Origin: a virus
Direction: 5' to 3' (one strand)
DNA length: 39,772 bases
Virus record (IMG/VR): IMGVR_UViG_3300045988_162015
In this document: positions 1,648 through 37,000 of the stretch, piece after piece
How positions within the stretch are numbered: position 1 is the stretch's first letter
Layout: every line of letters starts with the position of its first letter
Program-made: the position numbers and the translations under genes
Notes under the pieces: model-generated
Told to the model about the DNA's origin: nothing
What the model saw: the letters and a program-made list of their open reading frames with translations, nothing else
The model's database searches: none

Positions 1648-1650
1648 TAT

Positions 1651-2441: not shown

Positions 2442-2443
2442 AA

Positions 2444-2472
2444 TTGCTTTTGATGAAATTATATGATATAAT
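2444..2472 (+). promoter_or_regulatory. candidate sigma70-like promoter for the polymerase gene (-35 TTGCTT, 17-nt spacer, -10 TATAAT).
   Basis: TTGCTT at 2444-2449 and TATAAT at 2467-2472, sitting in the 67-nt gap between the stop at 2441 and the RBS at 2495. Confidence 0.35.
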
Positions 2473-2508
2473 ATTTATAGAAAATAATAGAATTAAGGAG
2501 GTAGGGAA

Positions 2509-16510: not shown

Positions 16511-16543
16511 AAAATGGGAGAACCGCATTGGTTCTCCCATTTT
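16511..16543. terminator. intrinsic terminator at the end of the late structural operon on the - strand. It is T-tailed on both strands.
   Basis: TGGGAGAACC-GCATT-GGTTCTCCCA, flanked by an A8 run upstream and a T-rich tract downstream. Confidence 0.65.
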
Positions 16544-16544
16544 A

Positions 16545-16952
16545 TTATTTTGTTTCTGTTGGAGTAATTTTATTTGAACTGACTTCTTTTTCAATCTTAG
16601 AAGAAATATATTCATTTAAATCTCCAACAGCAGAATTCAAATATTCGATAGCATCTTGACCTAAAATAGCAATTACTTTATTATAAACATCAGTAAATGC
16701 TTTTTTCTATGCTTCGCCATCAAATTTTCCTTGCTGTTTTAATGAATTAACATAAGTCTAATTCATTGCAATAACACAATCGGTAATTGTATTATCAAGC
16801 ATATCTAAATATTTTTTAGCTAATTCACTATCTGTCTGTTGCTTTAAAGCGTCCTTTTTAGATTTAATCCAAGCAACTAAGAATGTCGTTAAAATTCCGA
16901 GTAAAGGAATAATACAAATTTGAAATATTTGCGCAACTAATTGAGCATCCAT
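16545..16952 (-). CDS. small membrane protein (about 135 aa; N-terminal TM then a charged domain), a possible holin. It is read through 2 TAG codons.
   Basis: ORF 16758..16952 has a GGAGGA RBS. It continues in frame to TAA near 16545. TM segment IFQICIIPLLGILTTFLVAWI. Confidence 0.5.
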
Positions 16953-16965: not shown

Positions 16966-19900
16966 TTAATCTAAATAATCTGTAATATAAACATTTTGCC
17001 CAAAAACATAAGGAGAAGAATCTGGATATTTTTCACTTATGACTTCAATAGATATATCATTCTTTAAGTTAAATTCATAAGTTACTTCAGCATATCCCCA
17101 TAATCCTTCTGACGGAGCAACCTAACATTTAGCAGATTCTTTCATCAACGTATTATTATAAAAAATTTTACTAGTTATTTCTCCTATTTCCGTTGTAGAT
17201 TTATTTCTACTAAGTGTATGAATTGTTATTTTATCTCCTTCTTTAGCTGTAAATTTTGGAATATTTGTTTTTGAGATTCCATCAATAGATATTGAAGTAT
17301 CTACAAGATTTTTTGTAGTAATCCCAATCCATTTATTCCAAACTAAATTATTGTTTAAATATTGAGTATCTAAATACCAACTAGAATAAGCAGTTTTTTT
17401 ACTAATTTCTTGCTAAGGATTCTATTGTATTGAAATAATGGAATTCTGGCTGTTACCTGAAACAGATATTAAATCCCAATTATTTTGAATATAAAGTCCC
17501 CAATAACTGCTAGTTAATGTAGGATTATAAAAATTAATAAGAATTACTTCTCCACTGTCAGAATTAATTGTTAAATCAGGCAAATTAGCCCCAGCATTAT
17601 CTCCAAAATTAATTATTAACTATGGAGTGCTACTACCTGCATTTTTTATTGCTTCTTGATTTAATTTAGTTCCATTTAATATTTGTTTGATAATAAATTC
17701 TAATCCATCATTAACATGATCTACATAATATGTTTTTAAAATATTGTAATTAAAAATATAATCATTATTACCATTACCCTCAGAACCTTCATAAACAATA
17801 TTATTTGATAAATGTTCTACAGCAGTTATATTAATAATTTTTTTAGCTAATGGGATTCCAGGCAAACCAGTTAAAGTACCAATTTTTTCCCAATTATCAA
17901 ATAAAAACTCCTAATCTTCTAATGATTGAACTGGATCTTTTTTATACTAAAAAATATGTCCACGTGTAGAATCACTTAAATTATCTGTAATATTAATAAA
18001 TAAATCATTTTTAGAAAGAATAGGACCAATATAACTCTCTTTATTACCTATTACTTTTTCAATATTATTATTAATTGTATCTATAGAAACAGTTAATCCA
18101 GAATTTTTAGGAGTAAGAATATGAATAGGCAAAGGAGTTTCTAAATCAATTTGTTCCATATTTTTACTTATAGGTCTTATATTAGATACTTTGTAAGTCT
18201 ATTCATTTTTAACATTTATAGTTTTTATTGATATATCAGGATATTTAGGAATGGAAAAATTAAAAATTTCCTAATAAGTACCAATATTATCCTCTTCTAA
18301 AATACTACTTTCAACTACAATCTAATTTTTAATATAGCTGTTATCTTTATCTTTGATAAAAGAATCAACTAATTCTGTTTTAGCTAATGGAGCCGGTGCT
18401 GTAATAGCTCCTAAATAAATACCAGTAATCTAAGAAGAAGTTATCTCATATAAACTATAAATTTTCCCTGTTGGCTCATTTATATAGAAATCAGCTTTAT
18501 AGCCATTATTAGTTATATCATAAAAATGGTCCCCTAATGTAGCATATTCAGCCAATATTGATAAACAATAATTAGCTATACTACTATTTTCAAAATAATA
18601 CACAGAACCAATATCATCTTTTTTATTATTATTTATTAACTTTAATAAAATATTAAATAAAGAATATATTATTTGATCAACCTAAACTAAAGATCTAGGA
18701 TACATATCATTAAATAAATAAAATAAATTCTATTGACTACTTGAATTATATTCTGAATCTACCCAATACCATTCATATTCTAATTTATTTTTAATTTGCT
18801 ATAATTTAAAATTATCAGCTAAATAAGTATATAATTGCTAAGATAATTTAGTTATTTCTAAATTATTTTGAGGATTAAATAAAACTCTTTCATCAGGCTA
18901 AGCATATATTGCATTTAAATTATTATTGAAAAAATGTTTATTATCAATAATATTCCCATTTTCATCATATATTACTTTATCTTCTTTTAGGATATGTAAT
19001 AAATAATACGAAATTCGTGACAGTATAGAAACCTAATTTTTCCGGATTGTATATTTATAATCATAATTCTGATATCCATAAGTTTTATAATTACCCATAT
19101 TATGAAAATAAGATAATGGTCCTAATCCAAATAAAGAACCAGAAAAAAATGTTGGAGCTTTAGGCAAATCAAAAGTTAATTGAGGCCTAGTTAATGTTGC
19201 TGTCTTAATATTTCCATTTTTATCAAAATAAGTTCCTTCAGTTTTAAAATAAACATTTGGATCTTCCTAAGAGCCAACTATATTTTTATATACTTCTTCA
19301 ATACGCTATCCACGTTGTAAATAAAATTTAATTTTAGGAGTATCAGGATTGGTTAAATCTAAAGTAACATAAGGATCTCCATCTTCAATATCTATAGTCT
19401 AATGAAATACTTGAATACGAGGAGTAACGCCAGTTACGCAAGCAATTAAACGATATCCAAAACCAAAACATTCTTCACTTTCTAAATCAGATACTTCATG
19501 AAGAGATTCTCCATATTCTTCTTTATTATCTTCTTCTAAATTTAAGAAAATATAAATATTATTATCATTCTAAGGAAAATCTGGAGAAACTGTTAAATTT
19601 CTATCTACATAGATTTTCTACCACAATGAATTAGTATATGATTTTCCGCTATCTTTTAAATCTATCTGAAGATTAATATTATAGTTGGAGGTTTCTTCAT
19701 TCATATAAGATGGATCACCATAATTAATAAAAACATAATCTCCAACATTTACAGGAGAAGTCCATCTTGCTTTTAAATCTCCAACCATGTCAATAGCACG
19801 ATTGGCAAATATTCGTGTTATTTTAAAGTCTTGCCCTTTTTGTCCACCATAAAAGCTATACATTTATTAGTCTCCCCCTTCATATGTTTCATAAGTAAAG

Positions 19901-20568
19901 TCTATAATTATATTATATAAATCTACAATAGTTGGATCAGGTACATATACTCCTGCTTTACCTTTTAAATAAATTCCTAAACCACTTTTATACTAAGTTA
20001 TATAATTTTGATGAGCATTATTATATTCAGTCCAATATTCTGAACCAGCTTCAGTGCGATCAGGAGCCTAACCCAATGTTTTTTCTAATTCATTAATTTT
20101 CTATAAAAATGTATCTCTTGCCACTTTCATTATTCCAGTTCCAGTAGCCTATAACTATTGACTCAATTCTTTATTTATAATATAATTCTAAGGACGTTGA
20201 AATCTTAAATAATTAATTACAATATCATCATTAAGTTCATAAATACCAGTACGTCCAACCATAATCCATTCCCCAGTGTCTTGCGTAGTTGCTTTATTAA
20301 AAGTGAATTTAGTACCAGGGGGTGCCTAAATGCCTATTTTTTTTACATTATTGAAGCCTTTTAAAATATTAGCCCCAAAAATATCTATTTTTTTATTTTC
20401 ATAATCTGTTTCATCATTTGTAGTAGTTTCAGTAGAATCATTTAAATTATTCTAATATACAGCACTATATACTAACTCAGATAAATCTCCCTATTTAGTA
20501 GAAACTAATCCACCAGAACCACCATAGTCCTCTAAATTATAAACAATTTGTTTAAATTGAATTCCCAT
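16966..20568 (-). CDS. large virion structural protein (about 1200 aa), probably a tail fiber or baseplate protein. Single frame with many TAG codons.
   Basis: ORFs 19618..19863, 17947..18159 and 17620..17865 all sit in the same frame. GGAGG then ATG at about 20568. TAA at about 16966, followed 13 nt later by the next gene's RBS. Confidence 0.7.
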
Positions 20569-20579
20569 TATTTACCTCC

Positions 20580-23500
20580 TTATACTCTTGTTAAAGCTTC
20601 ATTTGTTGTAATCGACATATTTCCATTATAAGTTAAAGGAAGAGTATATTGAGTTATAACAAATTCCCCTTGTATATTACTTTTTCTATCATTTATATAA
20701 ATTAAATTATTAGGTTCTAAATAATATCTTGGCGCACAATTAATAGTAATAGTTAAATTATAAATTAAATACTAATATAACATTTCTCTTATATAATCAA
20801 ATGCCGTACTTCCTGTTCCGCTAGAACTAAATAATTTCATTTGCCCCGGTTTTAAAGCACAATAAGCCTAACCTTTTAATGTATAATCTTCTATCTTTTG
20901 AATTAAATCTGCTTCCCCAGTATTTTCAAAAAATATGATATCAGGCACTTCTAATTTATATAAAAGACTCATATTAGTTTTAGTCAATGCTTTAGTACGC
21001 CGGCCTATTTTATTAACTGAATATCTAGATACTAACTAATCTACATCAATAAAATCTAACCAATATGTTATTAAGCTAGGGTCAAGATAAATAGCAGGAT
21101 TCCATCCAATCCAAGTATCAGGTATGATTTCTTCATTTTGATTTTCTTCAGAAAAATTTTTTGATTCAATCTAATCAATTTGATTCCGCCATTCTTCATG
21201 CCAAGTTTCATTCTAAGGATTAAATATTTGTTTACGCCACAGATATTCACCATCTATTTTAGCTAATAATTCATCATCATAGTCTCCTTTCTGAGTGCCA
21301 TTTTCATTATTTAATAAAGCTTGTCTAAATAATTCTTCACGCCATTCATTACAAGGAGTACCAATTAAAGTAAAATAAAAATTATCTTCATAATCAAAAG
21401 GAGGTTCTTCAGGAGTATATGTAATAATTTTAATTTTATTATTATCATTAATAGTAGAAAAATCAAGAATATTAGAATTATAAGCTTTAGTAATTTCTTC
21501 AATAATTTCATTTAATGAATAATTACCATCATCACGTAAAATAAAAATTTTTTTTATTATATCTTCCTAATCACCTAAGATTTTTAACTAATCTTTTTTA
21601 CCATCTACTGGATCTAAGAATGGTAACAATAAATTACTTCCTCCCGATGTATTTCCATTTGATGTATTATCTTTATTATTATTCTCTTCATTGGGTTTTA
21701 ATGTAAAACCTGGATCTAAAATATCTAAAGGCATAATTCCATAATTTGGATCTCTAGGAGTAGGACCAGGTATATTATTATCTTCTGAATTGCCAGGTTT
21801 ATTTGACTCAGATGGATCATCTTTAGGAATTTCTTCCATATCTTTATAACTATAAATTAGTTCAATATCTGAAGTTAAATCATCTTTATTTGTTTTATAA
21901 TATTCTAATAATTTTTTAACTAAATCGTTATGTTCTTCTTCAGTAATAACAGTTTCATTATTTTTATTTTTTATTACTGGATAATTATTAGGAAATACAT
22001 AACTATATTCTATCTTCTTTTTAGATTCATTGTAACTAATTAATTTATAACTAGCAACAATAGTATTATTTATGGAAATTAAATTATTAGAATCAATAAA
22101 ACTAAAATCATAATCCTTATTTTTTTCATCAAAATTTATATCTTTAATAATTTTAATATAATAATTAATTTTAACAGTATTTAAAAAATTTTCTATATTT
22201 CTTAATGAAAGTTCTTCAGTTAATTCGTAAACCTAAATCCACTAACCTTCACTATCATAATAACCTAAAATATTTTTATTATCTATATTTTTTATTATAG
22301 TTAAATAATATTCTTTAGATTCATTAATCGTTGTATTATTATTATTATTATTATTATCATCAGACTTATCATTAGAAGAATTATTATTTTTATTTGCATT
22401 ATTTTCTTGATCTGCTGGTAACATAAAATCTGGATCTAACACTGTAGAACCTGGCTCTGGTACCATAAAACCTGGATCTAATTCTTTTGTATTAGATATT
22501 AACATAATGCCGTAATTTTCTAAATCTCCAGTCCCTTGGCCTTTACGCCACCAAGAGGCAGGAATACCAAAACCCGGATCTAATGTATCATCATCTTTAT
22601 AATTGTTATTTTTATTATTATTATTTTCATTAGAAGAATTATTATTACTTGGCCAACTATCAGTAGCATCTTTTTTAGGATAAACACCAAGAGCTAAATG
22701 AGTAAAGTCAATAATATCAGTTAAATCTTCAAGATATTGAAATCCTATAATTTCTTCATCTAATAAAGTAATTTTATAATATCTTATCTAATTTAAAAAT
22801 ATTATTTTATAATATAAAATAAACTAATCGCCAGTGTAAAAAGAATAATTCTTTAAAATATTTTCAATTATATCTTCTTTAATGTTAGATTCAATTACTT
22901 CATCCGCCATTTCTTCATGATTAACAGAATAAATAATTTCTAAAGCTTTTTTATCAGGTGTCTAATTATAATTACTTTTTTTATACTCAAATAAATAAAA
23001 AGCATGGTCACCATTACCTCGAACTACATCCCACATATATTGATTAGCTAAATCAATTTGAGGTTTTTCATCTATAGCTAAATGATACTATATAGTTTTA
23101 GTAACTCCATTACTATTAGTTTTATCGCCCCATACAATAAAATCATTTTTTATATTTTCATATTTAGGACTATTATAATAAGATAATGCATCTTTAGCAT
23201 TTGCAAAAGTATAATAATATTTACTATCTGAAAAAGCTTTTATATAATAAGTATCATTTATTTCTGTAATAGGAGTATAATAATAATTTAAATAATTCTT
23301 TTTCTACTAAAATACAAAATGACCATCTAAATCATAAAAATATTCATAATTTCCTAAAGATTCAATAATTTTATCAAGGACAGAAGTTACTGTGTCTCCC
23401 GCAGAAAATACTAATTCTCCTGGATAAGTAAAATCTGTTTCTTGATATCCTACGTCTTGTCCATAAATAAATTTATGCTATAAAAAATTTTCATCTTCAG

Positions 23501-24188
23501 GAGCGTTTTCACTAATTATAAAACTTTTATAATCTTTAGAAAACCATATAGGATTTTGGCCCATATATTTTGTACTAAGTTTAGCTGTCATATCTACATC
23601 ATTAATTATAACATTCTATTCTGGCTCTTTGCCAAAATGTGTTACACATTCTTTAATAATAGTAAATATAGGCACTTGCTCAATTGTAATATCTCCATTT
23701 TCATCTTCATATTGTGTCTCATGAAAGGTAACTGCTGAAGGTAATGTACCTCCACAAGTACCATCAAGCATACACATTTTATCCTTACCTGAAATAGAAA
23801 TATTTGCAGCAGAAGCTGTAGTAGAAGAAGTAGCTTGATTAATTACAAATGTTCCAAGAGGAAACCAAATAATATCTCCATAGTTTTTATAATCTTCAAA
23901 TGGATTTTCAAGTCCTACCTCTACTTTTACTTTTTTATTAATTGAAATTATATTTTCAATATTATTAATGTCATTTTCATTTTCTACACCGCTAATTGTT
24001 AGACTAATTGTGCGGCGCAAGGCGGCAGACCCATTAACTGTAATAGAGCCTGCCGTTGCTATACCCTATACTTCTCGTATGGGTTTTTCATCAACAAAAG
24101 ATAAAATGGTAAGTTTGATATAATGTTTTTTTATACGCATTTCATCTAATGCAGTTAAAAACTCACTATCTTTTAGATATTCTCTCAT
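20580..24188 (-). CDS. large virion structural protein (about 1200 aa) with Asn-rich linkers and at least 5 copies of an LDPGF motif.
   Basis: ORFs 23616..24020, 22242..22505 and 21588..21839 share a frame. A manual codon scan from 22242 to 20580 found only TAG interruptions. The ATG overlaps the upstream TGA (ATGA). TAA at 20580-20582. Confidence 0.7.
21690..22600 (-). repeat. interspersed protein-level repeats (T/E/V/I)LDPGF(G/M/T)(I/V/L)P, visible in the DNA as AAAACCTGGATCTAA-like units.
   Basis: Copies near 22571-22590, 22463-22480, 22427-22444 and 21706-21723. A related PLDPGFS lies in the neighbouring gene near 28150. Confidence 0.4.
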
Positions 24189-27100
24189 TCCGTTTTCTCC
24201 TATGATTCATCTTTTTCTTTCTACTTACCTTTTTTAACTTCCAAAGATGAAACAGATTTATAATTAACTATTGCATAAGTAGGTCTAACAAATTCTACTT
24301 TAACAATCTCATCTTTCAAAGGATTTAAAATTAATTTATTAGTAGGTCCAATACGTACATGAGTGCCAGGAGAACTAATATGATAATTACCAGTAGTTGC
24401 ATCAAGATCATACTCTCTATAAAAAACTAAATCTGTATTAGCATCTGCTTCAATTTCGATACTATCAATACCAGTAAAATTATATATAATTAATTGATCT
24501 GAACCATTCATCCAAGCATCAGTCTATTTATTTAAAGTTAATCCAGACAAAGGTCTATAATTTTCTAATAACTATGTACCAGTTATTAATAATTCTTCAA
24601 TAGACTCTGTATCATCTTTAACTCTATTTAAAAATTCATTTATATCATTATACAATAAATCAAAAGTAGATTCAAGTTTTTCATCACTATAATTATTTAA
24701 AATAGAAGTATGTACTTTTTCTTTTATTATATCCATTAAATTTAATGTAGAATATAATCCATAATTATATTTTTCATTAATTATCTAAGTATCATCATTT
24801 CTAAAGAACTAATGATTATCAAGAATATCTTGAGTATCAGTAAATACTCCACCAAGCTATCCCAATTGTGCAAATTCACGCTTAGCAACAGTCACCATTT
24901 CTAAGAAATCTTCTTCCTCTAAATCAACTATATAATTAATTAAAATAGGGCGAGTAAATTTTAAATACATACTATCAATAATGGCATCATCCAAATGATA
25001 AATACGACTGGGCATCATAGAAATTTCTTTACCATTTATTATCATAGTAATAATATTAGTCTAATTTTTTTCATATTCCTATAAAAGCTATTCACATCTT
25101 AATAATTCAACTGCATTAGTTAACTGACCTATCATAGTTGAACTAGTTTTATTTTTTAAATATTCTATTTTATTTTTAAGATTTAGTTTAGGATACTATT
25201 CTACCCAAATCGCTTTTATTCTTCTTACTCGATATTTTCTATCTTCACTTATTTCTTGCTCTTCTTGAAGTTTTATTGCGTTACAAATGTTATCATAAGT
25301 AAGATTAAATTTATTATTATCAACTATAGATAATTTATTATTAGTAATTTCCTGTGCACATTTTCCATTAAATGTTCGAGCTACTTGCCCAATAACTGTT
25401 TTAGTTTTTGTACTAGCATTCTAAATTGCTAATTTAGAATTATTAGACAAAGTAGTTAATGGATTTATCTAATATAAGATAATATTTTCTGGGGTACAAT
25501 CAGCTACTTCATAAGCTGTTGAATTAAAATCATAAATCATACGATATAAAGAAGCTTGAGGAGTCCAAGTAACATTAGTTAAAGTAACTATATGATTTCC
25601 TTCAGTTGGCGACTTAAATAGTTTATAACCACCATCATTTAAAAATTCTTCTACCCAATGTCTATATATACGTTCCATATATATATTATCATTAGTTGGA
25701 TTAGTATTAAATGTAGAAGCATTTTGAATATTATATTGTCTTATATTATAATCATTGTTATATGGATTCTATAAATCACGCTCAAAAGTTTTAATATATT
25801 TATCTTTTGAAATAACTATATCTCCATACCAACTATGATAATAACCACCTTTAGCATCATTACGCATTAAAAAAGAAGAATCAATATCACTTAATAAAGA
25901 AATTTTTGCACCCAACTAAAATTCTGCATAATGTGCCAATCCATTACGCAAAATAATCGGATATTTAGAATTCAAGCTATCTTGCTTTTGGAATAAAGTA
26001 GTATGCTTATAACTATTCATTTTGCAATCAAAATCTAAACGAACTTGAATACCATTATTATAAATATAACTATACTAAAAATTAGACCAATGTGCTGGTG
26101 ATGAATCAATATCATCACTTTCATATTTAGGGGCACTTCTTAATCCTACAGCATTCTATTTCTATAAAGCATATTTATATTTAACTCCGCTTTCAACTGT
26201 AAAATCTTCATATAATAAAGTTAATTTATCATCATAATTAGTTTCATTATACCAATCAAATTGAGCTATATCTTTCCATTGAGTATAATTATCAGTTTCA
26301 CAAGCTCTTGATAAAATAAAAGTACCATCAAGAGATTGATATTTTTCTACATCTATTTCACGTTCTACTTTTTCACCGGTAATAGTAGTAATGGTTATTT
26401 TTTCTTTTACTTCATAAGGATTATTTTTAATATAAATTTCTAAGCTGCCATTTTCATCAGCTCGCAAATTATGACTAAAATCTTCAATTGCTTTTATTCT
26501 AGTAATTTTACTTAATACATGAGTTTCTATATTATCTTCATTAATATTACCAGTTTGATAAATTATATCTCCCGCATTATACCCATCTGCGTCATCATAA
26601 TAACCTTTAATAAATTTAGGAGCCTATCCTTTTAATCCAAAATATTCCTTATACATCTAAAAAGCAACTTGATTTGCTCCGGCTATTTTATTTAATAATA
26701 TGGTAGATTCAGTATTATCTTTTACTGTAAATACTAAAGTCTATAACTATTTTAAATAATTTTCAGTAATAGTAAAATTATAATATTCAGAAGATTTTTG
26801 ATAATTATTCATTGTAATAACATCAAAAATCAATGAATACATTTTTGTTCCAGTCTAATCTAATTGTCTATTAAAACTATAAGAGACTAAAGCACTATAT
26901 TTATCTTTCCCTCCACCATTATACTATAGCCAATCACTCTATAAATATGGCTCAGAACTTGGAGGATTCTTTGAATTAAAACTGCCTTCATATAATCTAA
27001 AACGATATTTATCCAATGGTTCAGTATCGCTTTGATATCCTCCCTCAAATTTAGGGAAACGGCTAACTTCTATATTATTACTTGATATTAAAATAAATCC

Positions 27101-27613
27101 TACATCTAATGAAGAAGTATCTTTATTATTTAATATTTCTACAATTGGATCATCAATTGCTTTAGTAATTATAATATTAGACCATTCTGAAAAAGCTTCA
27201 GTTACAGTCTAAGATTTTTTCCATTTAAAAAATGAAATTTTATCTGTATAATCTATTTTCCCATAGCCAAAACGTATCTAAATTTTATAATAAGTATTAG
27301 AAACCCAACCTATTGTATCTCCTAATTTAATATCTGAACTATTTACAGTAACTGCATATATTCCATTATCAGTAGAGGTAGTTGGCTTTTCCATATAAAT
27401 AATACCATCCCAATATTTATCAGTATTAATTATACTTTTATTATTGGATTGCTATACAAATTTAATTGAAATATTCTTTACATCCTCATAATTTAATGAT
27501 TTAGGTAAAGAAAAATTTATATCAATAGAGGCCGCAGTTGCTAAAAATGCTGGTATTGAACTATCTACAATAGGCGGATATACTCTATTTATATTTATTG
27601 TGGACGCTGCCAT
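24185..27613 (-). CDS. large virion structural protein (about 1140 aa), possibly a Tal-like tail-associated protein.
   Basis: ORFs 26162..26467, 25469..25678, 24857..25045 and 24221..24511 share a frame. AGGAGG lies 7 nt upstream of ATG 27613. It ends at TGA 24185-24187 after 2 more TAG codons. Confidence 0.7.
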
Positions 27614-27689
27614 TTATTGACCTCCTTTAACTCTTATTTCTATTTATTTTTAAAAATTATATATTGTAAACATACTATTTTGGTCCAAA

Positions 27690-27720
27690 TAAAAAAAAAG
27701 AATGATGGATAAAAATCCAT
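27690..27720 (-). terminator. intrinsic terminator or attenuator within the late operon.
   Basis: On the - strand, TGATGGAT-TTTT-ATCCATCA followed by a T9 run. It sits directly after TGA 27720-27722. Confidence 0.5.
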
Positions 27721-30700
27721 CATTCTTCAATATACCAATCACGTAATTTTATATTTTTAGGAGCAATATAATCAGATAACTATTGTTTTAAATCAGCATT
27801 TGTAGCTATCTCATTTAGCAATTTAGCTACTGTTAAAATATTAGTCACACTTTCTTCTTTTAACTAAATAGAACCATCAACATTAAAACATAAAGCATCT
27901 CCTGCTAATTTTACAACTCCATCAGAACGCAAAATATTGGTAGGAATACCATCTATATCATATTGATATAATCCTGAAACAAACCCTGAACTATCTAATT
28001 CTTCCGCTGGTTCTTCTTCAGCTTCTAAACTTAATGTCTAAATTTCTAAATCTTTTCCTGGATCTTCGATAGGCAAGGTATATTTTCTACGTTTATTTTC
28101 CCACAAAGAACCTACATAAGTTTTACCTTCATCTCGTGCCCAAGGTCTACCATGAGAAAATCCTGGGTCAAGAGGTTTTTCAGATTCTACAGTATCTTCA
28201 TCAAGCACAGGTATATTAGTACCATCATTATCTTCATCTGTTATAATAGTAATATCTTTATTATTAAGCATTACTATTGGATAAAATAAACTGCCCTTAT
28301 TATCTGGTAAAAAAATCTATAACGCACCCATAGGAACAGTCTTTACTTGGTCAGTAGATTTAGCAAAATAAGCACCTGGATAATTTTCTTGCGGTCTAAG
28401 ATATTGCTATTTCACATTATCAGAATTAGTAGAATTAACTATAATTATATAATCAGTAAGAGACACTGGATTAGTAACCTATAATAAATCAATAAATTTT
28501 TTACCATCATATTTATACATAAAAGAAATCTATTTATTTATTAAAGAAGGAGTTCCCTTCTCATTATAAGTAATTTTAGAAGGTATATTAATATTACCAA
28601 TGCTATTAACTACAAAATCAGTACTAACCATTATAGGCTTGTAATAATATAAAGTCTAATTTGTAATAGCTTTATTTTCTAACCCTATAGTTACTTTAAA
28701 TTTTATAAAATACTAACCCTTACAATCTTCAACTGGATTTGAAATTTTAAATACATTTTTTTCTTTATTTACTTTTTCACAATTTAAATTGATAGGATCT
28801 GCTTCAACAGTTATTTTATATTTATCTGTGGCATTACCAACAGCATCCTAATAAGCAGAACCATTTATTATTTTATTACCATTATATCTTACTTCTGGCA
28901 TAAGATAAATTGGTTCATAATCAGACCCACTTTTTTTATTAATAGGTTTAGTGTCAAGTTCACTACCATCAGCATTGCAATCTTTAATAATTAATTGATA
29001 ATCTAAACCACTAACTGTTGAATCACCTGGCTTAATAAAAACAATACTTTTATTAAACTTAAATTCTTTATCAGCTAATGTTATTACTTTTAATGATAAG
29101 GTATTATTAGTATAAGTATCTACATATTTAGGTTTAATATAATAATGTAAAGCATTATTAGTTTTATCTATCCAAAGCTTTGAAAGCATTGAATTAGTAA
29201 TTTTAGTAGTAGGGTATTCTAAAAGTTCTCCTCCATCGGGTGAATACCAAGTAACACTTTTAACTCCTATATTTTCTTTATCTACGCTAATAGTTGGAGT
29301 AATAATTATTTCTTTATTAGCCTAATCTAAAGAAATACTACCATTGTCATCATACTAAAAAGTATCTGTCCCACTAAATACTACTCGCACAGGCGATTCT
29401 TGTTTATAAGTAATTAATTTGTATTCGCAAGGTACATAATTACCAGTATCTAATTTACTAACACTATAAAATATTACATTACCATATTCTAAAAACTAAC
29501 TTACATCAATCTAACTAACTCCAGTAGATAAAGGTAAATAAGATCCATCCATTAAATCAACATACCAATCTGCTTCATTAATAGTTTCTAATGAATCTAC
29601 AATAGATAATTTAACTTCATTTTCACTAATAAATTGTGGAATTATAGTAAATCGTTCATTATAATATTTAACTACTCTAACATCTTTATATAAAGTAACA
29701 TTAGAATTATATACTACTACTAATTTATATCGCATCTATTGATATACATCTTTACCTGAAATAGTTAATTCATTAAATCTTACATTAGGATTATCATTAA
29801 TACATTCCCACCCAGGGCCGCCTATCTAATCATATTTTTCACTACCAGATAGAACTGCCGGATTCTATTTATACCAATAACATTTGCAAGTTTTTTCTTC
29901 TAATATATTTTTATTGGCATAATAAAAAACACCTATTAATTTTATTTTATCAGTATCTTGAATTAATGATAAACCCTATGGCGCACTAATACCTACATAA
30001 TATAAATCTTTAGTAGAATCTTGGACATCAACAAAACTAAGTTTTACATTTTTGACAAAAAGATTAGGTTCTTTATCATAAACCGCAGTTATCTCACCTT
30101 TACCGTTAAAAACAGTATCATATCTTAAAAATCTTTCTTGAAAGAATGTAATTTTTTTTATGCCAATTAAATTAATTCCAGTTAAATCATAAATTACATA
30201 CTGCGGTGAAAATACCTCATAATCGTAAATACTACCAGAGAAATTTATAATATCTAATCTACGACTAAAAACAATACCTGTATCTTTTTCTACAAAATCA
30301 ACTTTTAATCCATAATTACCGGCCATCATTGTTCCATAAAACTATGTTCTAAAATCGGCCTAAATCATAATACGAGGATAAGTAGTTAATAAACTGGTAA
30401 AAATTACATCGTCAGTGAGATTATTATTTTCATAAATTACCTATTCATAATATTTACTTTTATCTTCTTCCTCTTCTATTGGTTCTTTATTATCTTTAAC
30501 CTAAGTATCAGTTGAAGTATCTTCTCCAATATCATCTGATGAATTATCTTCATTATCTTTTGGAGTTTCTTCTTCTTCCTTTTTAGGTTCTGGGGCATAA
30601 GCTAAGATACCATATTCGTTACCGTTACTATATATTTCACTTATTTCAACTACTTGCTAAGATAAATCACTATATTCTTCTTCGGTATAAGAAGTAGCAG

Positions 30701-31016
30701 ATGCTTTGCCTTCAATAGTTTTTTTCTAAGTAAAATCACCGCCTGGTACTTTTACATATACATTAGTTCCTTTAGAATATACATAAGTTAATGTAGCTGG
30801 GGCATAAGCACGAAATTTCCCTTTTTGATATTCAACAAAATACTCTCCAGTACTGGCATCGTTTAGACTTATAACTTCAGCAATTATAGTTTTATCAAAT
30901 GATAATTCAGCATCACGTGCCCGTGCTATATAATCTATAGTCTCTAATAAGGCATCTGTTATTTCTTTTGGCTTTTTTATAGTAGCTAAATATTCTTCTT
31001 TTCTATTATAAGCCAT
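27720..31016 (-). CDS. large virion structural protein (about 1098 aa), possibly an extended Dit-like distal tail protein. About 25 TAG codons.
   Basis: ORFs 30726..31016, 29976..30329, 29511..29735, 28848..29189 and 28038..28271 all share a frame, and only TAG codons separate them. RBS AAAGGAG. Confidence 0.7.
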
Positions 31017-31030: not shown

Positions 31031-31065
31031 CTCCTCAAAAATGAGGAGGAAATTAATCCTCCTCA
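31031..31065 (-). promoter_or_regulatory. two overlapping alternative hairpins (CTCCTCA/TGAGGAG and GAGGAGG/CCTCCTC) between the tape measure stop and the next RBS. They could act as a partial terminator or a translational-coupling element.
   Basis: The stems involve SD-like GAGGAGG sequence, and an ATTTTT run follows on the - strand. Confidence 0.4.
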
Positions 31066-34000
31066 TTTAGATTTATTTGCACTTATATATTGAGCCGCAT
31101 TATTACTAAGATTAGACAATGCTTCTTCAATTTCATAATGATCAGTAACTCCTGGGAAGTCTGCTTGAATAGTAACTTCTTGCTTAATTGGCTAAGTTTC
31201 ATAAACAGGTGGAGTAGTTTTATCAATCAAATTACCTAATTTTATCTATCCAAAATTAATCATTGATTGTACTTGTTTATCAACCCAATCATTCATATTA
31301 CGAACAATATCAACTGCACGAAGTATATTAGAAGTATCTTTTTGGTTAAGAATTAATTCTTTAGGATGGACTTTAATAATTTTACCATTATCAAGTCCAA
31401 AGCCTTGTCCTTTAGCCCAATTACCAGTATAGGCACCAGAAGCAGCCCCATTTCCATTTAAAATATCATCTAACCATTTTTCATCTTTTTCGCTAGTAAT
31501 CTATTTCATTTCGTCTTTAGTCCAATAATCAGTGCTAGAATCATTCTTTAATTCTTGACCTTCATTACGCATATTATCTAATTTTTCATTACGGGCTGTA
31601 ACTACATCATCAATACTCGTCCAAACGTTACCATTTTTATCAACAACAGTACTTTCCCCATTCTTCATACGAATAGCAATAGCACTTAAATCAACACCAA
31701 CTAAATTTCTAGCACCACTTCCACCGCCACTACTGCCAAAATTACCATCAATATACTATTCATTCTTAGCTAACTCTTCATCAGTCCGCTTAGAATATTT
31801 CTATTCCCAATCAAGAACCATTCCAATAGACTAAGAAATATAGCCCATTAATACATTAACAAGCTCTTCAATTTCATCACATAATTTTTGAATATGTTCT
31901 TCAAGACTATCAAGAGTACCGCCCATATCAGAACCAAAGTTTTCCCAAGATGTACCAGCAACGTTCATTGCTGCTTCAACAACTTTTTGCCAATCTTTAT
32001 AATTGGTTTGTAATTCACTAATTGTAGTATTAGAATTATTAACAAATAACATATAAGCATCATTATAATCATACAAATCAGTCATTTGGCCGTAGAGAGT
32101 ATCATGGAATGTTAATCCACTATTTACAACACCTTTATTTAATTCATCAAGTAAATATCTTTGTCTTTCAACATAATATTCTTGCAATGATAATAGCTAA
32201 TTTGAATAATCCGCAGAGTTTTTATCAAGATCTTGTAAGGCTTCTTTAAAATCAATTTGATTCTAAATTAACTATTCACTTACATCATTAATATAATCCT
32301 TACTTAACTTACCTAATTCATGAACCGCATCTTCATATTTCTATGTAGCGTCTTCAATTTTTTCTTCATCTGCATCATAAGCATAAGTCCAATTACCTGC
32401 GGCATCACGTACTAAACGCATTGAAGTTTTTGAATTTTGTTGCTCCATAAGAGCTATTTCAGCAAGTTGTAAGTCATATTTCTTCTATAAATACTCAAGG
32501 TCATATTGGCTCATCTAGACGCCATCGGCCTGAAGATCGTGAATCTCTTGCTAAATGTCTCTAAGTTTTTGTTTAGCTAAAAGGTCATTAGTATCAGCTA
32601 GCTATAAATTTAGCTAACGATTTAATTTATTTAATTCATATAAGCGTTCGGCATCATCAAGATATTCTTCATTAATAGTTTTTGCTTTTTCGTATTTATC
32701 TTGGAAATCTTCAAGAGTCTCAAATGGTGATAATGCATTACTTAATACATTAACGGCCATTTCAACACGCATTTCAAATAAATCTTGAGCAGCTTCAAGT
32801 GTTTCTTCCCAAGAAGCTAAAAATTCATCAGAAGCTTTTTCAGTTTCTTGTTTTAATACTTCAACTTGATTCTCCCAGAATTTAACAGAAGATGTATCAC
32901 CATCAGCCTGACGATCAGCGAGAGCGGCCTAAGCCTCTTTAGTTGCTTTAGCTAAACCATCCATTTGTGCTTTTAAAGATTTCATTTTACCTAACATTGT
33001 TTCTACTTTAGTAGCACCAATCTAAGTTTTTAATCCCATATCAAGCATTGAGCGACCAGACAAATCAATAATATTATTGAGATGATCAAGCATTGATGTA
33101 TAAGTATCAAGACGTTCTATCTACTTATCAATTTCATCAAGGGCTAAGTCTAGAACATTCTAAACTAAATCTTCAATATCATTACGCAAGTCTAGAATAG
33201 CTTCATTAACATCTATCAAATCACTTTGATATTCAAGTATCTATTCATCGAACATTTGTTCATAACCTGGATACTTAGCTTTCGCGGCGTTCAACTAATC
33301 AATACCCTAACGTAATGTAGCACCTTTATCAAAGAGCTATAACATTTCTTGCTCTTGGTAAGCAAATCCTTCAAGCATTGCTTCAATAGTTTGTTTATTA
33401 CCATGAGCCTATTTAAGAAGTTTTTCTTGATAATAATTAAGACGTTTAATCTAATAATCAATCTATTTAACTTTCCAATCAATAGCTTTTGTAATGGCTT
33501 CGAGTTCAAGTTCAGCAGCTTCTTTTTCTTTCTGAGCGATAAGAGCAACATTTTCATCAATATTCTATTGAATACCCATAGGACCATCAAGGCTATCTTT
33601 AATTTTAGTAAACCATTCATTTAAGTCTTCTTCGCTCATACCATCTTCAAGATTTTTTTGATACTAAGCCCAAACTTTACCCCATAGCTCAGAAGCATTA
33701 GCAATTTCACCATCATCAGTAAGCTTTATTTCAAATTCTGGATTTTCTTTGTTAAATTCTTCTACTTTAAGTTTTAATAACTTTTTCCAAGATTTAATCT
33801 AATCTTCAAGAATATCTTGCTCTTCTTTTAATAATTTTATTTCCTCTTGGATATATTTAGCAGAGTCTTCAGGATTAGCTCCATCACGTAAAGCTTCAAG
33901 ACGATCACGTTTCTTTTCTTTAGTTTTCAATAATTCATCTTGAATTTCTTTACCAATATCATTGGCAGATTTAGATTCAGAGCCGCCGCCTCCGCCTCCA

Positions 34001-37000
34001 CCTTTATTACCATTTTCAGTAGTTAAATATTTCCCGCCGTCTCCTTTAGTAACCAATGAGCCTTCAGAAGCTACACTTATAGTATCTCCAATAGTTCTCT
34101 TAAGTTCCGCTATTCGTGCTGGGTCTGCATTCGTTGGGTCTTTCATAATCTCTGCAATTTCCTAGAAAGCATTAAATAAAATTTGCAACTAAGAAGTATT
34201 AAAATGAATACCGACTTGTCCCATAGCATTAATATAACCACACATTTCTTCTATAGATCCGCCAAGAGGAGCAAGTGCAGCTAATGCTTGTGAAGCATCT
34301 GCCGTAATTCTACCATTAACTACAAATCCATCATTCTAAGATAAAAGATTGGTTATTTCATTTAGTTTAGTCTAAGCCGCAGTATATAAAGCTGAAAAAT
34401 CTAATTTTCCAGCAGATTCATTTATTTTTTCGATTAAAGCACTATCTACCTAAGAAAACATATCTAAGACTTTACCAGCTAAAGCTGCTTCATCATCATT
34501 ACCCCATAAAAATTTTTCTATTAATGGTTGATTCATCTAATAATCTGATTCAGAAAAATTAAATAAATCTTTTACTTTTTGTTTTAAGTCAGCTTCCACT
34601 TCAGCAGTATCTTCGCCTTCATCATGCAATTCTTTATATTTTGTTTTTAATTCACTAATTTCTTTGGTAGCTTCTTTTATTTCATTATTACGTAAAGCAT
34701 TATATAAATTATTAATAGCTTTTTGGGCGGCATTAGCATTATCTCCAGCCTACTCCATCTCATAATTATACTAATTTAAAGCTTCAGTATTACCTTCAAT
34801 ATCTTGATTTTTAGCAGCCCAACTTACTAAACCTTGCTAGCTAGCCTCATCCCCTAAATTAAAGCCTGTCATTTGATTCATTTCTTTTACTGAATTAGCA
34901 TCAGTATAAGCATTAGTTCTTAATAAATCAGCATTATATGATCCATCAATATTAGCCATATAAGCATCTATTATTCCTTGAATAATATCAGCCTAAGTAG
35001 CTGAATCCTAACGTTTATAATAATCTAAATCATAGTTACCTACTTCATCAGTACCAACTAATTTTGCTATTTCTTCAGAACTACCAAAAATATCTAGCAT
35101 TTGCTACATATAACGGCCTCGAATATCTGTAAAATTCCCAGCTGCCATAGCTGCTAAATTATTATCATAATCCTATCCATTAATGCGTATTCTAGTGCCT
35201 AAATTAAACTAATCATTCCAATTATCCTAAGCAGTTTCGGCAACATTATGCTATTCTTCAGCTTTATCTATTCCAGCCTAAGTTAAAGCATTTTTATCTT
35301 TAGTATCAAAATCCTTAACTTTTATATATTCGTCTGGACCAGTCTAAACATAATAATCTTCAGGATTTAACCCAGCAGCTTTAAAACCTTTAGTAATCTC
35401 ATCATATTTTTCTTGAGTGATAGAACTACCGACTTCTTGACCCATCAAGTTAAAAATTTCAATTAACAAATCTCTAAAAGTAGTAAAATCTTCTATAGGC
35501 AATTTATTAGCAGTTTCTTGCATCATATCATAGAAGCCTTTCCAAGCTCCTTCATCATCTGATACAACAATGCCTAAATCTTCTAGGGTATCAATAAATT
35601 CTTCCCAAGTTCCAGAAGACCAATCAAAATCAGCTATTTTATTTAACTAATCAAAAGTTAAATCTTTTCCTACTGTATTAATTGCTTCGGTAAACGCAAC
35701 AACCCCATTTTTACCTGCCACTTTAAATATATCTTCTGCAATCTAAGAAATACGAGATTTTAATGAAACACTATATCCTTCAAATTCATCAATTGCTTTT
35801 GATATATCATCTTCATCTTCAAGCCCTAATATATATTTAAATGCTTTATTATTACTTATATCTTCAATATTAGCAATCTAATGCGATGCTTCTTCTACTA
35901 TAGCTTCACCTAATTCTTTACCGCTAGTTACGCCTAATTCTTTCATCATATTAGACATATATGATTTTACAGTTTCTTGCTATTCAGGCTCTAATATATT
36001 AAAATCTTTACCAAATAAGCTCTATCCAATTAAATTCTATAAATCTTCATCTTCAAAGCCTTTTTCTATATCTGTTTTTAACTATTCAAGCTAATCTTGA
36101 GTAAAATTACCTAAATCACCATCATTGCCAAAAAATTCTAAAATACCTTGACCCACAATTCCCTAATTACTCATACCAGTCTAAAATTTTTGAGCCATAG
36201 CATAAGTAGTCTAAAGTTCTTCTCCCATAGCCTACATAGTAGCTATTGCAGTAGCAACTTCTGAGAATAATATAGTTTTTCCATTCTCTAATTGGAATGA
36301 CCTATTCTAACCTTCACCAATTACAGAATTTTTCTAGTTTAATTTATATTCACTATCATTTTTATCAATTTTAGCCGCTGCTAAATAAGCATCCCATAAA
36401 TTACGTAAAGCTTGATCTCCTTTACCAGCTCCACCAGCATTTTCATCGTGAGTTCCTATTTCTCGGTCCTTACCAGTTCCGTCATCCCAACTAATAGTTC
36501 CATTGTCATTATAAAAGCTATCTTTAATAGCTTCAATATTAGCATCTACCAAAGCGGTGGTTATTTTAGCATCTTCAGTAGACATAGTATTTAATCCAAG
36601 AGCCTATTGGACTGAAGCTTCTTTCGTAACCTATAATGTAGCGTCAGTATTTGCTTGTATTACTTTTGAGACATTAGATATAGCAGCTTGAACATCATCA
36701 GTATTAAATTTATCTGCAATTTTCTAGGCATAATCATTTAAAGTCGTATTGTCATTGAGAGTTTCAAATCCGTTATTCTTTAATGCCTATTCGATAATAC
36801 TAACTTGTTCTTCCTAACTTTTATTCTATAAATTTTCCTAATTATTCAAAATTAAATCTGCTATACCTGGCATTACTGAAGTATATTGTCCATTTTTTGT
36901 TAATCCTCCAGTTGTAGTACCACTCTAAATATTAAGAACATCCTAAAGATTACTTGTTAAGTTCTATTTAGCTTTTTCAATATTTAAGTCTTCTAAATTG

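What the first reader, a model, noticed from the sequence alone, without database searches (positions are those of the whole stretch)
16966..31016. Four consecutive 1100-1200-aa genes after the TMP, with an LDPGF repeat motif
Immediately downstream of the TMP there are four back-to-back giant genes, each about 3.3-3.6 kb and each a single frame with TAG read through. They are joined by RBSs, ATGA overlaps, and one internal hairpin plus T-run at 27690-27720. Together this is an unusually large distal-tail / adsorption apparatus, about 14 kb. The gene at 20580-24188 carries Asn-rich linkers and at least 5 copies of a conserved xLDPGFxxP motif (21690-22600). The gene at 27720-31016 has one more copy. 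No function for this motif is known to me.
Basis: partly seen in the sequence, partly recalled or inferred. Interest (0 to 1): 0.5.

Follow-up and report, generated by a model that had tools for sequence, protein, structure and literature searches.

The report
Recoded gut phage tail-tip genes
This stretch holds the tail-tip genes of a large human-gut phage that reads the stop codon TAG as an amino acid; the genes are ordinary in kind, but the tail hub protein carries flexible inserted arms with a short conserved peptide (LDPGF) of unknown role.

Summary
The genes lie on the minus strand and are open only if TAG is read through (9-28 in-frame TAGs per gene). There are five genes after the tape measure, not four: 1098, 1142, 1202, 233 and 965 aa. 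Public human-gut contigs of 182-214 kb carry the same gene calls.

The N-terminus of gC (1202 aa) has the gp27-like tail-hub fold (Mu gp44, Listeria gp18, 80alpha, T4 gp27, T5 pb3). gA is a chain of Ig-like domains, and a relative with the same N-terminus ends in a tail-fibre chaperone domain. gD2 has a conserved N-terminus and a divergent distal part, as receptor-binding proteins do. gB is a large family of unknown fold that always sits directly upstream of the hub gene.

The LDPGF motif is not chance (4 copies; none of 5000 shuffles gave 2). It lies in two poorly modelled, probably disordered linkers of a ~550-aa insertion in the hub. It is conserved in orthologues despite synonymous codon changes, and copy number varies by indels. 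I found it only in this phage clade. The gA copy is not conserved.

Function is unproven; I favour a docking or avidity peptide. This is a modest new variant of a known kind.

The parts
31063..39771 (-). Tape measure protein (TMP). The C-terminal 2902 aa lie in the window and the N-terminus runs off its end. It is 3039 aa in related public contigs. It has 110 in-frame TAGs.
   Evidence: PF10145 PhageMin_Tail, E=4.5e-23; ORF open only with TAG read-through; full length.
27720..31016 (-). gA, 1098 aa. It has an N-terminal helix and a small 5-stranded barrel (aa 42-104), an acidic disordered stretch (146-186), then about ten beta-sandwich/Ig-like domains. It looks like a fibre or adhesin-type tail protein. 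The distal third is variable.
   Evidence: AF2 mean pLDDT 71. Foldseek matches tandem Ig/FN3 arrays and phage minor-tail, J-fibre and Ig proteins. The N-terminal 400 aa are shared with P0272, which ends in Peptidase_S74. Only 33 homologues were found. Identity to orthologues is 60-86% over aa 1-650 (except the acidic stretch, 16%) and 30-48% over aa 650-1000.
28158..28172 (-). LDPGF in gA (aa 949-953), in a variable C-terminal linker. It is not conserved in orthologues.
27697..27728 (-). Intrinsic-terminator-like hairpin (14-bp stem) with a T-run, overlapping the gA stop codon. A 106-nt spacer with an RBS follows, before gB.
24185..27613 (-). gB, 1142 aa. It belongs to a large conserved family of unknown fold (core aa ~420-990) that is always encoded directly upstream of the hub gene. 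It overlaps gC by ATGA.
   Evidence: phrog_30026, E=1e-10. 2513 representative clusters at E<=0.001. No Pfam hit in 42 members and no PDB sequence hit. Synteny with the hub gene in Enterococcus phage VRE9_2 (CDS0030/0032) and in phAss-1 (ORF21/22).
20580..24188 (-). gC, 1202 aa: tail hub (Tal-like, gp27-like) protein with a ~550-aa central insertion.
   Evidence: AF2 and Foldseek against PDB: Mu gp44 6.9e-9, Listeria gp18 9.2e-8, 80alpha baseplate 1.2e-6, T4 gp27 2.1e-4, T5 pb3 3.4e-6. phrog_32343 1.2e-44 and phrog_1887 'tail protein' 1.5e-11. Sub-threshold DUF5047 at the N-terminus, and sub-threshold DUF5048 at the C-terminus of relatives.
23064..24188 (-). gC aa 1-375: the gp27-like hub domains, and the best-modelled part of the protein (pLDDT about 65-88).
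   Evidence: Identity to orthologues is 80-98%.
21354..23006 (-). gC aa ~395-945: a clade-specific insertion made of small domains X1, X2 and X3 joined by two low-complexity linkers. The 741-aa phAss-1 orthologue lacks it. The 921-aa Enterococcus phage orthologue aligned only to gC aa 8-378 by tblastn and was not checked for the motif.
   Evidence: pLDDT below 50 across aa 487-961.
22314..22676 (-). Linker 1 (aa ~505-625): Asn-rich, and carries the motif module LDPGFGIPxSW ... LDPGF ... LDPDF.
22569..22583 (-). Motif copy 1, LDPGF (aa 536-540), followed by GIPASWWR. This is the most conserved copy: LDPGFGIPxSWxR is at least 90% conserved across about 120 orthologues.
22467..22481 (-). Motif copy 2, LDPGF (aa 570-574). 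It is specific to this subclade.
22425..22439 (-). Motif copy 3, LDPDF (aa 584-588). It is conserved in all orthologues examined.
21624..21821 (-). Linker 2 (aa ~790-855). It is highly variable by insertions and deletions. Depending on the orthologue, it carries one motif copy, a full duplicate of the two-motif module, or nothing.
21705..21719 (-). Motif copy 4, LDPGF (aa 824-828), preceded by NYGIM as copy 2 is.
21603..21617 (-). LDPVD (aa 858-862), within the invariant stretch LLLPFLDPV(D/E)GKKDQLK. This is probably the start of the next folded segment, not a true motif copy.
19867..20568 (-). gD1, 233 aa, no detectable relatives outside the clade. It ends in TAA TAA.
16966..19863 (-). gD2, 965 aa: candidate receptor-binding protein. 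The N-terminal ~250 aa are 86-92% conserved, the remainder is 18-46% identical apart from one 60% window, and the C-terminus cannot be aligned. Orthologues are 880-965 aa or split into 216 + 640 aa.
   Evidence: No family, PDB or GenBank-phage hit.

Best explanation
This is the tail-tip (adsorption) gene block of a ~185-215-kb siphovirus-like human-gut phage that reads TAG as an amino acid, most likely Gln. It is a distant relative of the phAss-1 group and of the ~140-kb Enterococcus phages EF1 and VRE9.

Gene order on the minus strand:
- TMP, 3039 aa.
- gA, a fibre-like chain of Ig-type domains with a small N-terminal barrel.
- A terminator-like hairpin.
- gB, a conserved partner of the hub, fold unknown.
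- gC, the gp27-like tail hub (Tal-like), coupled to gB by an ATGA overlap.
- gD1.
- gD2, with the conserved-N, variable-C pattern of a receptor-binding protein.

Shown here: the recoding, the gene boundaries, the TMP identity, the hub fold of gC, the Ig-array fold of gA, the conservation patterns, and the conservation and clade restriction of the motif.

Inferred by analogy with solved hubs: a gC trimer closes the distal end of the tail tube. Its ~550-aa insertion would project three flexible arms, each made of small domains joined by low-complexity linkers.

Inferred, about 35% likely: the LDPGF-type peptides in those linkers are short linear docking motifs. The module is LDPGFG[IV]PxSWxR followed by LDP[DG]F, with 2-4 copies per chain and so 6-12 per hub. 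They would tether another tail-tip component or fold back onto the hub, with copy number tuning avidity or reach.
For: Recoding and gene calls:
- ORFs are open only with TAG read-through.
- Public assemblies from human-gut samples carry identical gene calls.
- Gln is enriched at TAG-aligned columns of homologues, 16% against a 3.3% background.
- The phAss-1 paper documents TAG->Gln in this group (PMC10607447).

TMP: PF10145.

No sheath-sized gene lies in the 8 kb upstream of the TMP, and that region is syntenic with the Enterococcus phage VRE9_2 structural module.

gC is the hub:
- 42 Foldseek PDB hits at E<=0.001, nearly all gp27-like hubs, Tal proteins or VgrG.
- phrog_1887 'tail protein'.

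gA is fibre-like.

gD2 is RBP-like.

The gB-hub gene pair is conserved in three phage lineages.

Motif:
- Not chance.
- It lies in regions of pLDDT ~25.
- It is at least 90% conserved while the flanking linker residues vary.
- Its codons vary synonymously (GAT/GAC; CCA/CCT/CCG/CCC; GGT/GGC/GGG/GGA), which indicates selection on the peptide.
- The module is duplicated or absent in linker 2 among close orthologues without matching changes in neighbouring genes, as expected for a multivalent, dosage-type element.
Against: - The order TMP-gA-gB-hub is not the textbook TMP-Dit-Tal. No Dit fold was identified, and gA's model does not look like a Dit.
- gB, gD1 and gD2 have no fold assignment.
- The gC model is poor overall (mean pLDDT 52). 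The insertion is unmodelled because its alignment is shallow, so 'disordered' may partly mean 'not predictable'.
- No partner for the motif was identified and no complex prediction was possible.
- In Enterococcus phage VRE9_2 the gB/gC-like pair lies about 20 kb from the TMP, after the lysis genes. Other tail proteins follow the TMP there, so gC-like proteins might not be the only hub-like component.
- The siphovirus call rests on the absence of a sheath gene in 8 kb, not on a whole genome.
Confidence: 0.7

Rival explanations
1. The LDPGF/LDPDF segments are structural elements, not docking peptides. They would be Asx-Pro turn or hairpin caps, or a ~27-60-aa mini-domain at the linker-domain junctions, conserved because they set the geometry of the inserted arms. 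No external partner would be involved.
For: - The two half-sites always occur as an ordered pair about 17 aa apart (LDPGFGIPDSWHR...QLDPDF), and the pair duplicates as a unit.
- Asp-Pro-Gly is a classic turn former (general knowledge).
- Low pLDDT could simply reflect the shallow alignment in this region: 15 close gC orthologues at >=76% identity, since the other rows of A3 lack the insertion.
Against: - The whole second module is dispensable in the many natural 1105-aa orthologues, which is unusual for a structural element.
- The flanks are compositionally extreme and diverge freely.
- No Pfam or PDB match was found.
Confidence: 0.3
2. The motifs are processing sites. The Asp-Pro bonds, exposed in flexible linkers, would be cleaved by acid or by a protease, releasing or unlatching the inserted domains during virion maturation or gut passage.
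For: - Every copy has an invariant Asp-Pro in a region modelled with very low confidence.
- Asp-Pro is the most acid-labile peptide bond, and self-cleavage of siphophage Tal proteins is known in lactococcal phages (general knowledge, not tested here).
Against: - There is no evidence of cleavage.
- Conservation extends well beyond D-P (L, F, GIP, SW, R), which a simple labile bond would not need.
- No protease domain was detected nearby.
Confidence: 0.1
3. The motif is a by-product of recent DNA duplication or of low-complexity sequence in an AT-rich genome, with no function.
For: - The genome has 25-31% G+C with Asn-rich runs.
- Linker 2 shows duplication and deletion polymorphism.
- The single gA copy is indeed not conserved.
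Against: - The peptide is kept across subclades at ~73-79% protein identity while neighbouring linker residues change.
- Its codons differ synonymously between orthologues.
- The copies within one gene have unrelated flanks.
- Shuffles never reach 2 copies.
Confidence: 0.05

Closest known systems
phAss-1 / proposed Phassvirus group (TAG->Gln gut phages; Babkin et al. 2023, PMC10607447)
   Same: - TAG recoding concentrated in structural genes.
- TMP longer than 3000 aa.
- Homologues of gA (ORF14, directly after the TMP), gB (ORF21) and gC (ORF22, 35% identity over the N- and C-terminal parts).
- Human-gut origin.
   Different: - Genome of about 136 kb against about 185-215 kb here.
- The TMP-gA block is separated from the gB-gC block by other genes, whereas here the two blocks are contiguous.
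- The gC orthologue is 741 aa, with no insertion and no LDPGF motif.
- No detectable gD1 or gD2 homologues.
- The paper labels the gC orthologue 'putative flagellin-like protein'. The fold search here indicates a gp27-like hub instead.
gp27-like tail hub / Tal proteins (Mu gp44, Listeria prophage gp18, 80alpha Tal, T4 gp27, T5 pb3)
   Same: The N-terminal ~375 aa of gC have the same fold (Foldseek E down to 6.9e-9). The gene lies in the tail-tip block downstream of the TMP. T5 pb3 also carries extra domains in addition to its hub domains (general knowledge).
   Different: - No sequence-level match to any solved hub.
- No lysin domain.
- Two large genes lie between the TMP and the hub.
- The insertion here is a string of small domains and low-complexity linkers that carry a conserved short peptide. 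I know of no described hub with this feature.
'Evolved' Dit and Tal proteins of lactococcal and Lactobacillus siphophages, which carry inserted carbohydrate-binding modules
   Same: The concept is the same: a conserved tail-tip scaffold protein decorated by clade-specific inserted modules on flexible connections, thought to aid host binding (general knowledge).
   Different: No carbohydrate-binding fold or family was detected in the gC insertion. The conserved element here is a 5-13-residue peptide in the linkers rather than a folded module.
Enterococcus phages EF1/EF5/VRE9 (~140 kb, standard genetic code)
   Same: Homologous TMP, gB-like (phrog_30026) and gC-like (phrog_32343) genes, adjacent in the same order. 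The structural genes upstream of the TMP are syntenic.
   Different: - Standard code.
- The gB/gC-like pair lies after the lysis genes, about 20 kb from the TMP.
- No detectable gA, gD1 or gD2 homologues.
- The 921-aa gC-like protein matched gC only over aa 8-378 by tblastn. It was not checked for the motif.

Membership tests
Tape measure protein (TMP) | PhageMin_Tail / TP901-type N-terminal domain in a very long, largely helical protein encoded upstream of the tail-tip genes | tested here: met
   PF10145, E=4.5e-23, 82.6 bits against a cut-off of 33.2. 2902+ aa in the window and 3039 aa in public contigs.
gp27-like tail hub / Tal (for gC) | gp27-like multi-domain hub fold | tested here: met
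   Foldseek against PDB gave 42 hits at E<=0.001, nearly all hubs, Tal proteins or VgrG. The best was Mu gp44 (9ki1_G) at 6.9e-9. The query region has pLDDT of about 65-88.
gp27-like tail hub / Tal (for gC) | Encoded immediately after TMP and Dit (canonical siphophage order) | tested here: not met
   Two genes of about 1100 aa (gA, gB) lie between the TMP and gC, and neither was shown to be a Dit.
gp27-like tail hub / Tal (for gC) | Trimer that closes the distal end of the tail tube in the virion | not testable with these tools
   Needs cryo-EM or multimer modelling.
Tal in the strict sense (tail-associated lysin) | Peptidoglycan-hydrolase domain in the C-terminal extension | tested here: not met
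   No Pfam lysin or peptidase domain in gC or its relatives.
Distal tail protein (Dit), considered for gA and gB | Sipho_tail-type N-terminal domain, or the Dit fold | tested here: inconclusive
   - No Pfam Sipho_tail hit.
- The gA model starts with a helix and a 5-stranded barrel followed by Ig-like domains, which is not Dit-like.
- gB could not be modelled.
- hhalign of the gB profile against the TP901-1 Dit found nothing. The same method also missed the gC-Tal relation, so it was not sensitive enough.
Tail fibre / receptor-binding protein (for gD2 and gA) | Conserved N-terminal attachment region with a divergent or exchangeable distal region | tested here: met
   - gD2: 86-92% identity over the first 200 aa (70% for aa 200-250), then 18-46% apart from one 60% window, with an unalignable C-terminus.
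- gA: 60-86% over aa 1-650 (except the acidic stretch, 16%), then 30-48%.
- The gA N-terminus is shared with a protein that ends in Peptidase_S74.
Tail fibre / receptor-binding protein (for gD2) | Recognised RBP, fibre or depolymerase fold | not tested
There was no Pfam, PHROG, PDB or GenBank-phage match.
Any described protein repeat or motif family (for LDPGF) | Match to a curated repeat or domain model, or to a published motif | tested here: not met
   - No Pfam hit over gC aa 500-860.
- No PDB sequence hit.
- No literature on LDPGF as a motif.
- Back-translated patterns hit only this phage clade in IMG/VR.
- Among the species-representative genomes the only real match was a contig of this phage clade binned into a Mollicutes MAG. 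The other hits are consistent with chance.
- tblastn hits in GenBank phages all had E>=4.
Code-15 (TAG->Gln) phages | Many in-frame TAGs in otherwise intact conserved genes, with Gln at the homologous positions | tested here: met
   - 9-110 in-frame TAGs per gene.
- Gln is enriched about 5-fold at TAG-aligned columns.
- No suppressor tRNA lies in this window, so the decoding agent was not seen here.

The most novel reading that the evidence does not exclude
The LDPGFG[IV]PxSWxR / LDP[DG]F module is a previously undescribed short linear motif of phage tails. It would be a multivalent docking or latch peptide displayed on probably disordered arms inserted into the tail hub. It would recruit or release another tail-tip component or a host-surface ligand, and the invariant Asp-Pro might act as an acid- or protease-sensitive release point in the gut. 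Short-motif biology is well known in eukaryotes and their viruses, but I know of little described for phage virions.
Probability: 0.2. Interest if true: 0.55.

Novelty: new variant of a known kind. Interest (0 to 1): 0.3.

Why it matters
The block shows how the tail tip of an abundant, uncultured, stop-codon-recoded gut phage lineage is laid out, and it suggests a correction to one published label. The orthologue called 'flagellin-like' in phAss-1 appears to be the tail hub.

The hub's insertion is a concrete case of a conserved short peptide under purifying selection inside otherwise free-drifting linkers of a virion protein. If it is a docking or release motif, it would be a compact handle for studying how accessory modules attach to phage tail tips.

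In kind, the genes are ordinary tail-tip genes. The motif is confined to one clade and has no demonstrated function.

Tried and rejected
No result:
- Standard-code ORF calling gives only fragments on the minus strand.
- Pfam on all five proteins gave only sub-threshold hits: DUF5047 on gC, Tli4_N on gA.
- blastn of gC against GenBank phages found nothing.
- Profile or sequence searches of gC, gA, gB and gD2 against PDB sequences found nothing significant.
- Pfam scans of 42 gB-family members found nothing.
- In 24 gA-family members the only E<1e-5 hit was Peptidase_S74, in one distant member; three weak single hits were ignored.
- tblastn of gD1 and gD2 against GenBank phages found nothing.
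- hhalign of the gB profile against VRE9_2 CDS0019 and against the TP901-1 Dit, and of the gA profile against VRE9_2 CDS0020, found nothing. hhalign of the gC profile against TP901-1 Tal also failed although the folds match, so these tests lacked sensitivity.

Procedural dead ends:
I obtained an exact public sequence through a cluster look-up and used that.

Motif searches outside the clade:
- The genome-collection hits are out-of-frame matches in GC-rich DNA or unrelated folded proteins. The count of 17 compares with about 9 expected by my own estimate.
- The one real hit is this phage clade binned into a 'Mollicutes' MAG.
- The second, looser two-site pattern found only the same clade.

Other:
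- I compared the three small inserted domains X1, X2 and X3 for repeat similarity. None was found; only the two linkers resemble each other.
- I considered a crAss-like RNA polymerase/cargo block at the outset and rejected it because of the TMP domain and the hub fold.
- A resemblance of QLDPDF to the bacterial sliding-clamp-binding motif was dismissed as coincidental in a virion protein.


Full report
**What is in the sequence**

The window has 25-31% G+C, and its GC skew flips at about 14 kb. Genes run on the plus strand up to ~13.8 kb and on the minus strand from there to the end of the window. Under the standard code the region 16-39 kb has no ORF longer than 215 aa. With TAG read through, the minus strand resolves into long ORFs:

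| ORF | Coordinates | Length | In-frame TAGs |
|---|---|---|---|
| TMP | 31063-39771 | 2902+ aa, runs off the window | 110 |
| gA | 27720-31016 | 1098 aa | 24 |
| gB | 24185-27613 | 1142 aa | 28 |
| gC | 20580-24188 | 1202 aa | 18 |
| gD1 | 19867-20568 | 233 aa | 9 |
| gD2 | 16966-19863 | 965 aa | 21 |

TGA or TAA read-through does not open these frames.

gD1 ends in TAA TAA and the ATG of gD2 follows directly in the same frame. Independent public gene calls on closely related human-gut contigs of 182-214 kb give the same series: TMP 3039, then 1098, 1142, 1203, 233 and 965 aa.

- gB and gC overlap by ATGA.
- A 14-bp hairpin with a T-run lies over the gA stop codon at 27728-27697.
- A 106-nt spacer with AAAGGAGG precedes gB.

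**Which phage this is**

- The upstream giant ORF is a tape measure protein (PF10145, E=4.5e-23).
- tblastn of gC finds the phage phAss-1 (OQ749652, NCBI lineage 'Caudoviricetes code 15 clade') at 35% identity over the N- and C-terminal parts. It also finds the ~140-kb Enterococcus phages EF1, EF5, VRE9 and H1 over the N-terminal 370 aa.
- The phAss-1 paper describes TAG->Gln recoding of structural genes and TMPs of about 3150 aa, and infers siphovirus morphology (PMC10607447).
- In homologues, Gln is about five times enriched at the columns aligned with this window's TAG codons.
- In a 97%-identical IMG/VR contig, the 8 kb upstream of the TMP hold no sheath-sized gene. That region is syntenic with the VRE9_2 structural module: phrog_4088, 31155, 4051, 2729 and 30570, then the TMP. 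The phage is therefore siphovirus-like.

**The five proteins**

*gC.* I modelled a 1196-aa orthologue at 96% identity with AlphaFold2, using a 62-sequence alignment.
- Confidence is usable for aa 1-375 and for the C-terminal ~150 aa, and below 50 for aa 487-961.
- Foldseek against the PDB gave 42 hits at E<=0.001, nearly all gp27-like hubs. They include Mu gp44 (6.9e-9), monocin, Listeria prophage gp18 (9.2e-8), the 80alpha baseplate (1.2e-6), NF5 Tal, T5 pb3, T4 gp27 and VgrG proteins.
- gC is therefore the tail hub (Tal-like). No lysin domain was detected.
- The published label for its phAss-1 orthologue, 'putative flagellin-like protein', is probably wrong.

*gA.* The model has mean pLDDT 71.
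- It shows an N-terminal helix, a 5-stranded barrel, an acidic disordered stretch and about ten beta-sandwich domains.
- Its structural matches are tandem Ig/FN3 arrays, and among viral models they are minor-tail, J-central-fibre and Ig proteins.
- Its first 400 aa recur in a 1586-aa protein that ends in Peptidase_S74, the tail-fibre chaperone domain.
- Its distal third is the most divergent part.
- I read gA as a fibre or adhesin-type tail protein. That its N-terminal barrel plugs into the hub, like a gp5 or gpV spike, is only my guess from the sequence pattern.

*gB.* It belongs to a very large family: 2513 representative clusters, with a conserved core at aa ~420-990.
- It has no Pfam, PDB or informative PHROG match.
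- Its one firm property is synteny. It sits directly upstream of the hub gene here, in VRE9_2 (CDS0030/0032) and in phAss-1 (ORF21/22).
- Whether it is a Dit-type ring could not be tested.

*gD1.* It has no relatives outside the clade.

*gD2.* It is an orphan by sequence. It has a conserved N-terminal ~250 aa and a strongly divergent, length-variable distal part that is occasionally split into two genes. This is the usual signature of a receptor-binding protein.

**The LDPGF motif**

A degenerate search of all six reading frames of the window finds the motif only in gC and gA:
- gC: LDPGF three times, LDPDF once, and a degenerate LDPVD.
- gA: LDPGF once.

Four [LIV]DP[GD]F matches were observed in gC. 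Among 5000 shuffles, 22 gave one match and none gave two.

The gC copies lie in two low-complexity linkers, at aa ~505-625 and ~790-855. These linkers belong to a ~550-aa insertion (aa ~395-945). The 741-aa phAss-1 orthologue lacks the insertion. The 921-aa Enterococcus orthologue aligned to gC only over its N-terminal 370 aa, and I did not scan it for the motif.

Across about 120 orthologues, the module LDPGFG[IV]PxSWxR followed after ~17 aa by LDPDF is at least 90% conserved, while the flanking linker residues and even their composition change (Asn-rich here, acidic and Pro-rich in the sister subclade). In linker 2 the whole module is duplicated in some orthologues and absent in the common 1105-aa form.

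Between orthologues the motif codons differ synonymously: GAT/GAC, four Pro codons and four Gly codons. Selection is therefore acting on the peptide, not on the DNA.

The 'fifth' copy (LDPVD) lies in an invariant stretch that begins the next conserved segment and lacks the aromatic residue. The gA copy is replaced by KPIKPSF, KPLKPKL or similar in orthologues at ~60% identity. I regard it as coincidental.

Searches for the motif outside the clade:
- Back-translated patterns hit only gC orthologues of this clade in IMG/VR.
- In 185,579 species-representative genomes, the only real hit is a contig of this phage clade binned into a 'Mollicutes' MAG. The remaining hits are out of frame or lie in unrelated proteins, and their number is consistent with chance.
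- GenBank phages gave only hits with E>=4.
- The literature search found no mention of LDPGF as a motif.

**How it most likely works**

*Shown:* the recoding, the gene structure, the TMP, the hub fold, the Ig-array fold, and the conservation patterns.

*Inferred from what is known of solved hubs:* a gC trimer closes the tube at the end of the tape measure. gA and gD2 provide fibre and receptor-binding functions. The gC insertion forms three flexible arms.

*For the motif:* I favour a short linear docking or avidity peptide, at about 35%. The reasons are that it sits in very low-confidence, probably disordered regions, is conserved as a peptide, is multivalent, and tolerates changes in copy number. 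The alternatives are:
- a structural turn or mini-domain, about 30%;
- an Asp-Pro processing site, about 10%;
- a neutral by-product, about 5%;
- something not considered here.

None of these could be tested directly.

**Comparison with what is known, and verdict**

The block is a new member of the known class of siphophage tail-tip modules within the recently described code-15 gut phage group. The hub with inserted arms of small domains and linkers, carrying a clade-specific conserved peptide, is a new variant of the 'decorated hub / evolved Tal' theme.

The order TMP-gA-gB-hub departs from the textbook TMP-Dit-Tal order, and no Dit was identified. In phAss-1 the TMP-gA and gB-gC blocks are separated, and in VRE9_2 the gB/gC-like pair lies ~20 kb from the TMP. 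Gene order in this lineage is therefore fluid.

Interest is modest. However, the gene count and the motif count need correcting, the gA copy is not meaningful, and the motif's function remains unknown.

Noticed in passing
window 7164-10278 (+): The anaerobic ribonucleotide reductase gene nrdD is split. 7164-8483 encodes the ATP-cone plus NRDD profile positions 2-265. 9298-10278 encodes NRDD positions 264-562 plus the glycyl-radical domain. A GIY-YIG endonuclease ORF (8606-9166) lies between them. It looks like an intron or homing-endonuclease insertion, but no Rfam intron family matched, even at E<=1.
   Followed up: partly
window 2662-6510 (+): The DNA polymerase III alpha-like gene on the plus-strand replication block also needs two TAG read-throughs to be intact. 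Under the standard code it splits into 818 + 470 aa. Recoding is therefore not confined to the late genes, only much rarer there: about 0.16% of codons against 1.5-3.9% in the tail genes.
   Followed up: partly
window 19861-19869 (-): gD1 ends in two consecutive stop codons, TAA TAA, followed at once by the ATG of gD2 in the same frame. A tandem stop in a genome that has reassigned one stop codon may be worth a census.
   Followed up: no
L021 (CAMELE010000019.1, 37.8 kb, 'uncultured Mollicutes bacterium' MAG): This MAG contig encodes gB and gC orthologues at ~70% identity and has 26% G+C. It is either a binning artefact or a hint at the host. The phAss-1 paper suggested Clostridia instead.
   Followed up: partly
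L001 (phAss-1, OQ749652) 20001-22226: The GenBank record fragments the gC orthologue into five short 'hypothetical' CDSs because it was annotated with the standard code. The paper's re-annotation calls it 'putative flagellin-like protein'. By fold, its relatives are gp27-like tail hubs.
   Followed up: yes
window 16511-16543 (both strands): A strong 14-15-bp GC-rich palindromic hairpin with T-runs on both strands lies just downstream of the 135-aa gene at 16545-16952 (-). It looks like a bidirectional terminator inside the minus-strand late block.
   Followed up: no
window 14825-15676 (-): This 283-aa ORF has a Gly/Asn/Trp-rich N-terminus, a hydrophobic segment (WWIIILFLFCF) and a Cys-rich C-terminus (CCC..., CGCQYTA). 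It has no family match and is conserved in all related contigs. It might be a lysis or membrane protein.
   Followed up: no
L013 (ena:ERZ27286927 k141_2481), gene at 1-3208: In one sister-clade contig the tape measure (3233 aa) carries a precomputed NLPC_P60 peptidoglycan-hydrolase hit in addition to PhageMin_Tail. No such domain was detected in the part of the TMP within this window.
   Followed up: no
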